A stretch of 64,000 nucleotides of DNA from IMG/VR virus record IMGVR_UViG_3300030419_008098, positions 1-64,000 of that record, one strand, 5' to 3'. Below are positions 5,697-8,137 of this stretch, piece after piece. This DNA is from a virus. Each line of letters begins with the position of its first letter. The stretch's first letter is position 1. Made by a program: the position numbers and the translations under genes. A model generated the notes under the pieces. That model was given only the letters and a program-made list of their open reading frames with translations. It was not told the origin of the DNA and did no database searches.

Positions 5697-5837
5697 GTTT
5701 CGCTCTACTTCACATTAGGAGGGGAATAAAAGAGGTATAAAACATTATACATTAGTATTTAAGTTTCGCTCTACTTAATTAAAAATGGTCGGGACGGATT
5801 TCGCTCTGAAGAACTGGATGCGAACCAGATTTCGCTC
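5697..5837 (-). CRISPR. Distal guide array: one degenerate 36-nt repeat plus short-handle units
   Basis: RTTTCGCTCT at 5697, 5763, 5798, 5829; 5697-5724 matches the 36-nt repeat at 27/28 positions and 5697 to 5763 is exactly 36+30 nt. Confidence 0.75.
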
Positions 5838-5928
5838 TAATAAGAAAGAAGATGCCTATTAATATAATCTCAAGGCTTTGAGTTCCCCCTGCGAACTAGG
5901 GAAGAACATTAAAATTTTTAAAGAACTG
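5829..5928 (-). ncRNA. Scaffold RNA copy A (omegaRNA/tracr-like)
   Basis: Hairpin 5882-5907, stem 5854-5876, ends in handle GAGCGAAAT, boxA-like 5917-5928; homologous to three other copies. Confidence 0.75.
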
Positions 5929-5948
5929 TTAGTTAAGGGCGTCCCTGC

Positions 5949-6006
5949 GTTTCGCTCTACTTCTGGATGATGGGGTTTCACTCACCTTTACAAGCAAGGC
6001 GGGCTA
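5949..6006 (-). CRISPR. Short-handle guide units downstream of scaffold B
   Basis: GTTTCGCTCTACTTC at 5949, GTTTCACTC at 5975, GTTTAGCTC at 6007. Confidence 0.6.
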
Positions 6007-6109
6007 GTTTAGCTCCCCTCCGTGAAGGAGATGCGTATTGATGTAATCGCAACGCTTTTAATTCCCCCTGCGAATTAGGGAAGAATATTTATAAAATTTT
6101 AAAGAACAG
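6007..6109 (-). ncRNA. Scaffold RNA copy B
   Basis: Hairpin 6061-6086, stem 6033-6055, boxA-like 6098-6109. Confidence 0.75.
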
Positions 6110-6134
6110 TTATTTAAGGGCGTCCCTGCTTACG

Positions 6135-6368
6135 GTTTCGCTCTACTTCAAATTCAGAGGAGTGCAAAACGAAACGAGTTTTTCGCCTTGCTTGTTTCAG
6201 GTTTCGCTCTACTTCAAATTCAGAGGAGTGCAAAACAAAGAAGTGGCAGATTGGCGGCATCTTTTAGTTTCGCTCTACTTCAAATTAGGAGGGGTGCGAA
6301 ACTATTACAGCCGAATTAACTGACCGACTAACGTTTCGCTCTACTTCAAATTAGGAGGGGTGCGAAAC
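6135..6368 (-). CRISPR. CRISPR array, 4 x 36-nt repeats, 3 x 30-nt spacers
   Basis: Repeats at 6135 and 6201 (GTTTCGCTCTACTTCAAATTCAGAGGAGTGCAAAAC), 6267 and 6333 (GTTTCGCTCTACTTCAAATTAGGAGGGGTGCGAAAC); strand inferred from promoter, nuclease and boxA orientation. Confidence 0.92.
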
Positions 6369-6431
6369 CGTCAGGGCTTTCATGCCGCTAAAGGGGTTGA
6401 ATTTCGCTCACCAAAACCCGTGGGAACTCTA

Positions 6432-6530
6432 ATTTCACTCCCCTCGGTGAAGGAGATGTCTTTTGATGCAATCTCAAGACTTTTAGTTCCCCCTGCGAAC
6501 TAGGGAAGAACTTTAAACTGTAAAGAACAT
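6432..6530 (-). ncRNA. Scaffold RNA copy C, starting at nuclease stop codon
   Basis: Hairpin 6486-6511, stem 6458-6480, handle at 6432, extra short handle at 6401, boxA-like 6519-6530. Confidence 0.75.
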
Positions 6531-7906
6531 TAACCGAAAACCGCTTTTTTTATGTTTTGGGCGGCATTTTGGTCACGCTCATGGTGTGTTCCACATTCGG
6601 GACACTCCCACTCGCGGTCAGTTAAGGACAATTCACTATTCCTGTAACCACAGCAAGAACAGTCTTGAGTGGTATAAGCAGGGGGAACTGCCTCAACTAC
6701 ATTACCCCTAAGCTCAGACTTATATGTTAATTGATTTTTAATATCATATATTCCTGCTTCAAGGGATTTTTTATTAATTGCTTGTTTTTGTTTATTAAAA
6801 AGTTTTTTATCTTTTTGGGTATTACCAACCATCTCTTTTACTTTATAATCTTCAAAAGCAATGCCATCGTAATTATTTGTTATTTGATGGGTGAAATTAT
6901 GGATGGCATCTTTGTGTTGGCGTGTTTGTTGGCGCTTAAGTTTACCCAATCTCTTGAGAAGTTTACGCCAATTATTTGAGCCGCGCTCCTTCAAAGACAG
7001 TTGTTGTTGAACTCGCAGAATACGATCCTCAAGTTTTTTATCCTTGGGGAAATTATATTTATTGTTTTGGTCGTCTATTACATTATCCTTAATCCCGAAA
7101 TCCAACCCAATAGTTTTAGTTGGCTTTTCCACAACAGGAGGTATTTTATTTGGGTCAAGAGCAATAGTAATACAGAGGTAAAACTCATTACCCTCTTTTG
7201 AGAGTGAAACCGTTTTCATTTTACCCCCTTCGGGGATGGGGCGGTGCATCACAAGCCTCATCGGCTCTTTTATCCCCGCTATTTTATTAAGTCGGCTGTG
7301 GGTTGGGCGCTCTTCATTTATAGTGATTGAATACTCGCCTTCTATTGGTTCACCCTCTGCATCTACAGTATTGGAGGTACTGATAAAACCCCCATCACAA
7401 AAATGAGTGGGATGAACAGGGAGGCGATTACCGCTTTCTTCTGCAAAATATTTTACACCTTTACCTTTAGTATACCAGCTAGACTTAACTTTGGGGGCAA
7501 CATGGTTTAGACACCTAGCTGACACCTTATTTAAAATCTCGTACCCCCAACATTCGCCCTCATCGTTCATGTAGCGGTTTGCTTTGAGGGATTTGTTTAT
7601 TATCCTTGTTTCTCCCGTTTTAAGTTTCTTTACTTTCTTATATTTGAACTCGGGCAAATTATCCAAGCCCTCTTTTTTGGTGCGCCATTGGGAGATTAAT
7701 TTATTCATGGCGGTGAAGTTTGGTGCGCCCTTGGCACTCTGAAACTCGGGGTAGTTCTCTATATCCCCCGCAATCCTGACGAATTCATTCACTACAATCT
7801 GAACAGCCTTCATTGCCTCGGTAACTTGGGCATACCACTCAGTTTCCTCAATCTTTTGACTACGAGTGAGGGGGAGGAGTCTATATTTATAAGTTATAGT
7901 TTTCAT
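6530..7906 (-). CDS. tnpB: TnpB/Cas12f-like RNA-guided RuvC endonuclease
   Basis: N-terminal TYKYRLLP; RuvC-I IGLDFG, RuvC-II IAFED, Zn finger YTTQDCSCCG..WECPECG, RuvC-III RDQNAAQNI; catalytic D-E-D all present. Confidence 0.9.
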   Translation of the reverse strand: MKTITYKYRLLPLTRSQKIEETEWYAQVTEAMKAVQIVVNEFVRIAGDIENYPEFQSAKGAPNFTAMNKLISQWRTKKEGLDNLPEFKYKKVKKLKTGETRIINKSLKANRYMNDEGECWGYEILNKVSARCLNHVAPKVKSSWYTKGKGVKYFAEESGNRLPVHPTHFCDGGFISTSNTVDAEGEPIEGEYSITINEERPTHSRLNKIAGIKEPMRLVMHRPIPEGGKMKTVSLSKEGNEFYLCITIALDPNKIPPVVEKPTKTIGLDFGIKDNVIDDQNNKYNFPKDKKLEDRILRVQQQLSLKERGSNNWRKLLKRLGKLKRQQTRQHKDAIHNFTHQITNNYDGIAFEDYKVKEMVGNTQKDKKLFNKQKQAINKKSLEAGIYDIKNQLTYKSELRGNVVEAVPPAYTTQDCSCCGYRNSELSLTDREWECPECGTHHERDQNAAQNIKKAVFG

Positions 7907-7963
7907 TTTTAAAAGTCCATGTCGAATGCCTCGGGTAGTCTTGAGGTCTCCGTGGAAGGTAGA

Positions 7964-8137
7964 ATTTCGCTCTTTCCTTAAGTTAAAGTTCAGCCTTGCC
8001 TAGTTTCGCTATTAAAGTGTGGCGTCATCGTACATATTTCGCTCTGTTAAAGCAACAATTGGATCATGTTTCGCAACCCAAGAGCTTAGCTCAGCTGGTG
8101 TTTCGCCTTGGAAGTAATACTCTCCACCTCGTTTCAC
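7964..8137 (-). CRISPR. Non-canonical mini-repeat guide array upstream of nuclease
   Basis: RTTTCRC at 7964, 8003, 8036, 8068, 8100, 8131 (spacing 39,33,32,32,31) with unique intervening sequences; motif equals the end of the 36-nt repeat. Confidence 0.75.

What the first reader, a model, noticed from the sequence alone, without database searches (positions are those of the whole stretch)
5781..8099. Several short guides look like tRNA gene fragments
Guide 5781-5797 reads CCGTCCCGACCA-TTTTT, the typical tRNA-Pro 3' acceptor end with CCA plus flank. Insert 8082-8099, GAGCTTAGCTCAGCTGGT, is a canonical acceptor/D-arm in antisense orientation to the transcript. Guide 5813-5828, CTGGTTCGCATCCAGT, is a T-arm with one mismatch to TTCGAAT. 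Weaker cases are 8021-8034 (5' end pattern GGCGTCA-TC-GTAC-A), 5964-5974 (CCCATCATCCA, His-like 3' end), 6410-6421 (ACGGGTTTTGGT, Gln-like anticodon arm) and 6377-6398 (Glu-like). Both orientations occur, which favours DNA targets. Possible roles are cutting or silencing host tRNA loci, hitting att sites of tRNA-integrating prophages or satellites, or attacking rival phages' tRNA clusters. The matches are short and judged by eye, so chance is not excluded.
Basis: inference. Interest (0 to 1): 0.78.

Follow-up and report, generated by a model that had tools for sequence, protein, structure and literature searches.

The report
Phage guides matching host tRNA genes
A marine phage's miniature CRISPR-like DNA cutter carries a few built-in 17-letter guides that match transfer-RNA genes of its probable hosts (marine Opitutales bacteria), so the phage probably cuts DNA at sites the host can hardly mutate.

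Summary
Partly confirmed. The window is part of a 96.7-kb IMG/VR phage record with no tRNA gene of its own. A 458-aa TnpB-like nuclease (6530-7906, minus) sits among four scaffold RNAs, a 36/30 CRISPR array and mini-repeats (..GCGAAAY) that are followed by short guides.

- **Three strong cases are real.** Only 5781-5797, 8078-8099 and 5808-5828 beat every shuffle against real tRNAs.
- **Four weak cases are chance.**
- **5781-5797 is decisive.** Joined with its 2-nt-shifted copy in a sister phage, the 19-mer occurs 36 times in 185,579 species genomes. Of these, 29 are the exact 3' end of tRNA-Pro genes (CCA plus TTTTT flank) and 3 more are truncated tRNA-Pro 3' ends. About 22 hits are Verrucomicrobiota, mostly Opitutales.
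- **A second lineage does the same.** A clade with about 60% nuclease identity carries a different guide that matches tRNA-Arg(CCG) of a marine Opitutales cell 17/17.
- **Shared features.** Exact matches stop at 17 nt, and the 5' flanks read TCT, TCT, TCT and TCC.

Best reading: hard-wired 17-nt guides direct DNA cutting at host-clade tRNA genes or elements carrying their att cores. The benefit to the phage is inferred. This is a new variant of known kinds. The scan noted phage TnpB arrays with tRNA-like targets on other DNA before.

The parts
6530..7906 (-). 458-aa TnpB-like RNA-guided nuclease (P0001)
   Evidence: Pfam OrfB_IS605 and Cas12f1-like_TNB. NCBIfam guided_TnpB scores 191 bits against a cut-off of 100. 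The RuvC residues D269, E352 and D445 and the zinc-finger cysteines C416, C419, C435 and C438 are invariant in 21 family members. The closest natural solved structure is ISDra2 TnpB, over the C-terminal half only.
5781..5797 (-). Guide D2, 17 nt: 3' end of tRNA-Pro (acceptor strand, discriminator A, CCA) plus the TTTTT flank, in sense orientation
   Evidence: Exact in tRNA-Pro genes of 29 species genomes, mostly Verrucomicrobiota/Opitutales. Conserved in L003 with a 2-nt register shift, and 17/17 to the target in both. The 5' flank in the targets reads ..AATCTCT.
8083..8099 (-). Guide A2, first 17 nt of unit 8078-8099: antisense to tRNA nt 4-20 (end of acceptor stem, U8 A9, D-arm)
   Evidence: 17/17 to a verrucomicrobial tRNA-Lys(CTT) with 5' flank GCTGCTCT. 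16/17 to tRNA-Thr(TGT) in Opitutales. The first 14 nt are identical in sister locus L004.
5812..5828 (-). Guide D1, first 17 nt of unit 5808-5828: tRNA T-arm plus the start of the 3' acceptor strand, sense, with one atypical base (T-loop C58)
   Evidence: 15/16 in the shuffle test, above all shuffles. 51 of 61 Opitutales genomes have a hit with at most 2 mismatches, nearly all CTGGTTCGAATCCAGT; the best is 16/17 and none is exact. The unit is absent from L003.
7964..8130 (-). Upstream mini-array: five handle+guide units (A1-A5), period 31-39 nt, between scaffold 1 and the nuclease start codon
   Evidence: Compared with L004, positions 1-14 after each handle are 53/56 identical. Positions 15-17 are 6/12 and 18-24 are 16/28 identical, with changes in unit length.
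8131..8202 (-). Scaffold RNA copy 1, ending in the handle GTGAAAC
   Evidence: Four-copy repeat. Three-hairpin consensus structure with compensatory changes in stem 2.
6432..6510 (-). Scaffold RNA copy 2
6007..6085 (-). Scaffold RNA copy 3
5829..5906 (-). Scaffold RNA copy 4, directly followed by guides D1 and D2
6135..6368 (-). Canonical array: four 36-nt repeats with three 30-nt spacers (S1-S3); none resembles a tRNA
   Evidence: No protospacer was found.
5956..6006 (-).
   Evidence: Chance level against tRNAs: p=0.26 and p=0.76.
6369..6431 (-). Units B1 (6411-6431, 'Gln-like') and B2 (6369-6400, 'Glu-like')
   Evidence: Chance level: p=0.84 and p=0.08.

Best explanation
Three of about 17 guide segments in this phage's TnpB-type guide arrays are aimed at tRNA genes as DNA. 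The proposed mechanism follows.

1. Each of the four transcription units yields a structured scaffold RNA of 72-79 nt that ends in the handle ..GCGAAAY. The same handle recurs before every guide of the mini-arrays.
2. The 458-aa nuclease, which has an intact RuvC triad, is loaded with handle+guide RNAs whose working guide is about 17 nt.
3. It binds double-stranded DNA next to a 5' TAM that is probably TCY, and cuts it.

The guide targets are:
- D2: the 3' end of tRNA-Pro genes plus 5 flanking bases.
- A2: the 5' acceptor/D-arm region of Lys/Thr/Gly-type tRNA genes, on the opposite strand.
- D1: a T-arm.

The matching genes belong to marine Opitutales (Verrucomicrobiota), the probable host clade. 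The phage itself has no tRNA gene, so it is spared.

The inferred consequence is cuts in the host chromosome, and in any resident or rival element that carries the same tRNA-derived att core, at sequences the host cannot easily change.

Shown: the matches, their statistics, their conservation, and the nuclease's catalytic residues. Inferred: transcription and processing, guide length, the TAM, cleavage, and the benefit to the phage.
For: Match statistics and direct hits:
- Shuffle tests: (6 of 92 family guides score 15/16 or better, against 1 of 1840 shuffles).
- D2: 36 genome hits for the 19-mer, 29 on tRNA-Pro 3' ends including CCA+TTTTT, about 22 in Verrucomicrobiota. It is the only guide of the window with a match in five marine Opitutales genomes.
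- Independent recurrence: L064, L065 and L014 (about 60% nuclease identity) carry a different mini-array guide. It is 17/17 antisense to nt -1..16 of tRNA-Arg(CCG) in G003, a marine Opitutales single-cell genome.

Guide length and TAM:
- Exact matches end at 17 nt in D2, A2 and the L064 guide.
- The 5' flanks are TCT, TCT, TCT and TCC.

Conservation:
- Window and L003 differ by two indels at the D2 unit, yet both keep 17/17 to the target.
- Positions 1-14 after the handle are 95% conserved between window and L004, while the rest of each unit drifts.

Nuclease and self-sparing:
- The RuvC triad and zinc finger are invariant.
- There is no tRNA gene and no self-target in the 96.7-kb record.

Host link:
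- The 3' 32 nt of the phage tmRNA are 31/32 identical to ssrA of two marine Opitutales genomes.
Against: - No RNA data, no cleavage data and no measured TAM exist for this system.
- Only D2 has an exact target in the candidate host genomes. A2's exact 17-mer was found in 1 of 301 Verrucomicrobiota and in none of 81 Opitutales.
- D1 matches no real tRNA exactly, and its T-loop C58 is atypical. It may be decayed.
- The other conserved guides (A1, A3, A4, A5) have no target in the Opitutales sampled, so host DNA is not the general target of the arrays.
- The TAM rests on four sites, two of which overlap.
- The window-L004 conservation could partly reflect recent common ancestry (nuclease 92% identical).
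- The phage record is only 69% complete.
Confidence: 0.5

Rival explanations
1. The intended targets are not the host's tRNA genes as such but mobile elements tied to them. These would be integrative elements, prophages or satellites whose attP/attL/attR cores are copies of a tRNA 3' end, or islands sitting next to the tRNA gene. The tRNA sequence would then serve as a universal address for whatever is integrated there (conflict between mobile elements).
For: - The D2 17-mer occurs in viral contigs 7 times. Five are truncated tRNA-Pro 3' fragments that ARAGORN does not call as tRNA, which is typical of att cores.
- Truncated copies also stand in bacterial loci L133, L138 and L161, and L161 has two copies 1.9 kb apart.
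- Published parallel: Cas12r arrays of Thermus Lalka phages target integrative elements that use tRNA genes as att sites (bioRxiv 10.64898/2026.04.20.719267).
Against: - A2 and the L064-clade guide match the 5' part of tRNA genes, which att cores rarely include.
- No second copy of the D2 site was seen in the five marine Opitutales genomes.
- In Cas12r the spacers match the bodies of the elements, not the tRNA sequence.
Confidence: 0.2
2. The guides are aimed at tRNA genes carried by competing phages of the same hosts.
For: - One viral contig (L236) has a six-gene tRNA cluster whose tRNA-Pro carries the exact D2 17-mer plus the T-rich flank.
- Earlier scan notes describe other phage TnpB arrays whose spacer matches a tRNA-like gene of sibling phages (not checked here).
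- This phage lacks tRNA genes, so it would be immune.
Against: - In L236 the 5' flank is CTA, not TCY.
- Only 1 of 7 viral hits is a phage tRNA gene.
- The A2-type pattern found one viral contig only, and that was a tRNA fragment.
- No other guide of the window matched any viral contig held.
Confidence: 0.1
3. The tRNA-like units are inactive relics. They would be spacers once picked up from host DNA or att sites, then shortened and inherited without function.
For: - D1 carries a base that no real tRNA found here has.
- C2 is only 11 nt long.
- Units vary in length and content between strains.
- There is no expression evidence.
Against: - D2 stays 17/17 in two phages despite two indels.
- Conservation is concentrated in the first 14 nt after each handle.
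- A tRNA-matching guide recurs independently in a clade with about 60% nuclease identity.
- Each array follows a scaffold with covarying stems and lies beside an intact nuclease gene.
Confidence: 0.15
4. RNA-guided homing: the guides steer integration of the phage or of a transposon next to tRNA genes, as the delocalized crRNAs of type V-K and I-F CRISPR-associated transposons do.
For: The anatomy is similar: degenerate repeats followed by short spacer-like sequences that match tRNA-gene regions (review PMC11656645).
Against: - No integrase, resolvase or DDE (rve) transposase was found in the 96.7 kb held.
- The neighbouring AAA protein is a clamp loader.
- The RuvC site is intact, unlike Cas12k.
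Confidence: 0.04

Closest known systems
Delocalized (atypical) crRNAs of type V-K and I-F CRISPR-associated transposons (review PMC11656645)
   Same: A guide sits behind a repeat that only partly matches the array repeat. A short spacer-like segment is hard-wired to a conserved tRNA-gene region.
   Different: Here the effector keeps its RuvC triad. No Tn7/Mu-type genes were found. The carrier is a large lytic-looking phage. There are several such guides in tandem, each array headed by its own scaffold RNA.
Cas12r-CRISPR of Thermus Lalka phages (bioRxiv 10.64898/2026.04.20.719267)
   Same: A phage-encoded type V system without adaptation genes, whose targets are connected to tRNA attachment sites.
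   Different: Cas12r uses 32-33-nt spacers that match the interior of integrative elements. Here 17-nt guides match the tRNA gene sequence itself. No integrase was found in this phage.
TranC / TnpB-derived CRISPR systems (LaTranC, PDB 9jfo) and ISDra2 TnpB (PDB 8exa)
   Same: A TnpB-sized RuvC plus zinc-finger effector with a scaffold RNA ending next to the guide and with CRISPR-type arrays. A guide length of about 16-17 nt is TnpB-like (own knowledge for ISDra2).
   Different: Sequence similarity is limited to the C-terminal half (E 4e-21 for TnpB, 1.5e-11 for LaTranC). The N-terminal 200-250 residues are specific to a marine phage family. There are four scaffold copies and mini-repeats of 7-15 nt.
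Host-directed spacers of phage-encoded CRISPR systems in huge phages (Al-Shayeb et al. 2020, PMC7162821)
   Same: Phage-borne arrays with spacers against host chromosomal genes.
   Different: The targets here are tRNA genes, the guides are short and conserved between related phages, and the effector is a 458-aa TnpB relative.

Membership tests
Guide derived from or aimed at a tRNA gene | Similarity to real tRNA genes above shuffled controls | tested here: met
   A2, D1 and D2 exceed all 200 shuffles. Across the family, 6 of 92 guides pass against 1 of 1840 shuffles on an independent tRNA set. The four weak cases do not pass.
Guide derived from or aimed at a tRNA gene | Exact full-length match inside annotated tRNA genes, flank included | tested here: met
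   D2: 29 of 36 genome hits lie on tRNA-Pro 3' ends with CCA+TTTTT. The L064-clade guide is 17/17 on tRNA-Arg(CCG).
Guide derived from or aimed at a tRNA gene | The same for A2 and D1 | tested here: inconclusive
   A2 is 17/17 in one verrucomicrobial tRNA-Lys and at most 16/17 in 81 Opitutales genomes. D1 is at best 16/17 and never exact.
TnpB/Cas12 RNA-guided RuvC nucleases | RuvC-I/II/III acidic residues and a CxxC..CxxC zinc finger; family profile above cut-off | tested here: met
   D269, E352, D445 and four cysteines are invariant. Pfam PF01385 and PF07282. NCBIfam guided_TnpB scores 191 bits against a cut-off of 100.
TnpB/Cas12 RNA-guided RuvC nucleases | RNA-guided, TAM-dependent DNA cleavage | not testable with these tools
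   Only inferred. The candidate TAM TCY comes from four target flanks.
TranC (transposon-CRISPR intermediates) | TnpB-sized effector using CRISPR-array guides together with a reRNA-derived scaffold | tested here: inconclusive
   Arrays and scaffolds flank the gene in the window and in relatives. Similarity to LaTranC is limited to the C-terminal part. No phylogeny was made.
Type V-K CAST homing crRNA | Tn7-like TnsB/TnsC/TniQ genes and a RuvC-inactive Cas12k | tested here: not met
   No rve-family transposase was found. The AAA neighbour is a clamp loader. The RuvC triad is intact.
Type V-K CAST homing crRNA | Atypical repeat plus a short spacer matching a tRNA-gene region | tested here: met

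The most novel reading that the evidence does not exclude
The phage uses the nearly immutable parts of host tRNA genes as universal addresses. A handful of inherited 17-nt guides lets a TnpB-sized nuclease cut the host chromosome, and cut out or destroy whatever defence island, satellite or prophage is integrated at those tRNA genes. The phage does not need to know that element's sequence, and it stays immune because it carries no tRNA genes. This would be a fixed, escape-proof form of RNA-guided host takeover or counter-defence, in contrast to adaptive targeting.
Probability: 0.25. Interest if true: 0.8.

Novelty: new variant of a known kind. Interest (0 to 1): 0.62.

Why it matters
- **Host prediction.** It gives a concrete and testable host for an uncultured marine phage family: Opitutales.
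- **Ready-made assay.** It supplies a natural target set, a guide length (17 nt) and a candidate TAM (TCY) for a very small RNA-guided nuclease with unusual mini-repeat arrays. These are the inputs needed for a first biochemical test.
- **Biology.** If the guides are functional, a phage can hard-wire RNA-guided cutting to conserved host tRNA genes. That links three themes so far described separately: host-directed phage CRISPR spacers, tRNA-directed homing guides of CRISPR-associated transposons, and phage-versus-island conflict at tRNA att sites.

Tried and rejected
- **Expression:** no RNA holder was listed. Read laying gave DNA contigs only. One run carries 5650-5871 unchanged and other strains show rearranged arrays, with no information on transcripts.
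- **Canonical spacers S1-S3:** no hit in viral contigs. The window arrays and the L006 array had no hit in the cultured-phage collection. A TAM could therefore not be derived from ordinary spacers.
- **Scaffold core motif:** no hit in viral contigs.
- **Self-targeting:** the best match of any guide elsewhere in the 96.7-kb record is 14/17, which is chance level.
- **Guides A1, A3, A4 and A5 against host DNA:** nothing in five marine Opitutales genomes. In 61 genomes of the order, only scattered 18-19/22 matches in unrelated genes with mismatches next to the handle, so these were rejected as chance.
- **Decayed phage tRNA gene idea:** the idea was that D1 and D2 are two pieces of one decayed gene. 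It was rejected. Their acceptor parts do not fit one tRNA, a bona fide handle separates them, and L003 has D2 without D1.
- **Idea that A2 and D1 come from one tRNA:** rejected, because the acceptor strands are not complementary.
- **Integrase, resolvase and DDE transposase:** none found in the record, which is 69% complete.
- **Sibling phage records:** only one of five was held. It is 24 kb, 11% complete and has no tRNA, so it is uninformative.
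Full report
**Setting**

The window is the first 64 kb of a single 96,744-bp IMG/VR virus record that is linear and 69% complete by CheckV. It has no tRNA gene and one tmRNA. Genes are small, mostly on the minus strand and phage-like; they include a clamp loader and a sigma factor.

At 6530-7906 (minus) lies a 458-aa protein:
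- It has Pfam OrfB_IS605 and Cas12f1-like_TNB domains.
- It scores 191 bits on NCBIfam guided_TnpB, against a cut-off of 100.
- Among natural solved structures it is most like ISDra2 TnpB, over its C-terminal half only.
- Twenty full-length relatives (35-89% identity) come from marine metagenomes. D269, E352 and D445 and four zinc-finger cysteines are invariant among them.

**Anatomy on the transcribed (minus) strand**

Four copies of a 72-79-nt scaffold stand at 8131-8202, 6432-6510, 6007-6085 and 5829-5906. Each folds into three hairpins, with compensatory changes in the middle stem. Each ends in ..G(C/T)(G/T)AAA(C/T).

The same heptamer is the 3' end of the 36-nt repeat of a small canonical array (6135-6368, 30-nt spacers). 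It also recurs as a bare 'handle' before short segments:
- A1-A5: 7964-8130
- B1, B2: 6369-6431
- C1, C2: 5956-6006
- D1, D2: 5781-5828

Related loci show the same layout. The closest ones (L003, L004, L014, L064, L017) have mini-repeats, and the more distant ones (L006, L007, L012, L022, L023) have ordinary 36/30 arrays behind a scaffold.

**Checking the observation**

Each guide was scored by its best 16-nt window against 146 ARAGORN tRNAs, with 200 shuffles per guide. Only three guides beat every shuffle: A2 (8078-8099, 16/16), D1 (5808-5828, 15/16) and D2 (5781-5797, 16/16). The four weak cases are at chance level (p=0.93, 0.76, 0.84, 0.08).

Part of that tRNA set had been fetched with guide patterns, so I repeated the test on 95 independent tRNAs and all 92 guides of the family. 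Six guides reach 15/16 or better, against 1 of 1840 shuffles. They fall into three independent groups: D2 with its L003 homologue, D1, and a guide shared by L014, L064 and L065.

**D2**

L003 has an 85% identical nuclease and carries the same guide shifted by two bases.

- **Genome search.** The 19-mer union was searched in one genome for each of 185,579 species. It gave 36 hits, where about 4 are expected for a random 19-mer.
  - 29 lie exactly on the 3' end of ARAGORN tRNA-Pro genes: acceptor strand, discriminator A, encoded CCA and a TTTTT flank.
  - 3 more are truncated tRNA-Pro 3' ends.
  - 3 are unrelated.
- **Taxonomy of the hits.** About 22 of 36 are Verrucomicrobiota, mostly Opitutales. 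They include marine single-cell genomes and Candidatus Chordibacter forsetii.
- **Marine Opitutales genomes.** In five of them, D2 is the only part of either array with a match.
- **Viral contigs.** The 17-mer occurs seven times: five truncated tRNA-Pro 3' fragments, one phage tRNA-Pro inside a tRNA cluster, and one full tRNA-Pro.

**A2 and D1**

A2's first 17 nt are the exact antisense of nt 4-20 of a verrucomicrobial tRNA-Lys(CTT). In 81 Opitutales genomes the best matches are 16/17, in tRNA-Thr(TGT), Gly and Lys; 18 genomes were hit (22 sites), against 5 control hits. L004 shares only the first 14 nt, which correspond to the D-arm, and then differs.

D1 is the common T-arm with a single change at T-loop position 58. 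Of 61 Opitutales genomes, 51 have a match with at most 2 mismatches. Three have 16/17 and none is exact.

**A second lineage**

L064, L065 and L014 have about 60% nuclease identity to the window's protein. Their mini-array guide is 17/17 antisense to positions -1 to 16 of tRNA-Arg(CCG) in G003, a marine Opitutales single-cell genome. It has one mismatch in two sister genomes. tRNA-gene guides are therefore a recurrent feature of the mini-arrays of this family. None of the canonical 30-nt spacers resembles a tRNA.

**Guide length, TAM and conservation**

- **Length.** In all three exact cases the match stops at 17 nt. D2 is bounded by the next partial repeat at that point.
- **TAM.** The 5' flanks of the protospacers read ..CTCT (D2)..ATCT (L003)..CTCT (A2) and ..ATCC (L064 guide), which suggests 5'-TCY. 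This rests on four sites, two of which overlap.
- **Conservation, window versus L004.** Positions 1-14 after each handle are 53/56 identical, positions 15-17 are 6/12 and positions 18-24 are 16/28, with changes in unit length.
- **Conservation, window versus L003.** The D2 unit differs by a 2-nt loss at the handle/guide junction and two extra T at the far end. Each version is still 17/17 to the tRNA-Pro locus.

**Host**

Besides the guide matches, the last 32 nt of the phage tmRNA are 31/32 identical to ssrA of two marine Opitutales genomes. Marine Opitutales are therefore the best host candidate. This is an inference from sequence only.

**Interpretation**

The most likely reading (about 0.5) is that these are working, inherited 17-nt guides. 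They would direct a catalytically competent TnpB-type nuclease to tRNA genes as DNA. The evidence for a DNA target is that both strands are used, and that D2 and the L064 guide include bases outside the mature tRNA.

What the phage gains is open. The options are:
- cutting the host chromosome at sites the host cannot mutate;
- hitting elements that carry tRNA-derived att cores or sit at tRNA genes, as suggested by the truncated copies in viral and bacterial DNA and by the Cas12r precedent;
- hitting tRNA genes of rival phages (one example, L236).

Points that speak against a general host-DNA role or keep the relic hypothesis alive:
- Guides A1, A3, A4 and A5 have no match in sampled Opitutales.
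- No exact A2 or D1 target was found in that order.
- D1 looks damaged.
- There is no RNA evidence.

CAST-like homing is unlikely. No recombinase or transposase was found, and the RuvC site is intact.

**Comparison and novelty**

The nearest known things are:
- delocalized tRNA-directed crRNAs of type V-K and I-F CASTs;
- Cas12r of Thermus phages;
- TranC/TnpB systems;
- host-directed spacers of huge-phage CRISPR systems.

The combination seen here was not found in the papers searched: a phage-borne TnpB-sized nuclease, tandem mini-repeat guides, and exact 17-nt matches to the tRNA gene sequence itself. I rate it a new variant of known kinds. Earlier notes of this scan describe other phage TnpB arrays, two of them with a spacer against a tRNA-like gene of sibling phages; I did not check those.

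Noticed in passing
window 42847-43213 (minus): ARAGORN calls a phage tmRNA with an odd tag (AATSVLLTQIG). Its last 32 nt are 31/32 identical to the ssrA 3' end of two marine Opitutales genomes (L240, L241), while the rest is unlike them. This could be a host link, or an att-type core.
   Followed up: partly
window 6171-6200 (S3) and 5985-6006 (C1): A canonical 30-nt spacer and a mini-array guide share a 12-nt core (ACAAGCAAGGCG) in opposite orientation with different flanks. This would fit two guides against related targets on opposite strands. I estimate roughly 0.01 for such a match by chance.
   Followed up: no
L133, L138, L161 (bacterial); L233, L234, L235, L237, L239 (viral contigs): Truncated tRNA-Pro 3' ends (about 35-50 nt) that ARAGORN does not call as tRNAs. 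L161 has two copies 1.9 kb apart. They look like att repeats of integrative elements using tRNA-Pro.
   Followed up: partly
L008 6339-6664; L064 4301-4800 and 6399-6675; L005 1512-1725: Some family members carry a second, different scaffold and repeat type (repeats ending CTAAAAC or CTCAAAC) downstream of the same nuclease gene. One effector may therefore serve two kinds of guide RNA.
   Followed up: no
L192 (IMG/VR contig), around 1229-1248: A viral contig holds only the 5' half of a tRNA-Trp-like gene (A1 start, CCA anticodon loop) that ARAGORN does not call. This is a 5'-half tRNA fragment inside viral DNA.
   Followed up: no
window 8580-9122 (minus): A sigma-70-family factor gene lies directly upstream of the guide locus. 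Each scaffold copy is preceded by the same AT-rich block (..GTTCTTTAAA..), a possible phage-specific promoter.
   Followed up: no
window 5697-5762: A degenerate terminal repeat copy (5697-5732) and a 29-nt AT-rich segment (D3, 5734-5762) close the downstream array. D3 has 17-nt AT-rich chance-level matches near tRNA genes in G001 and G004.
   Followed up: no
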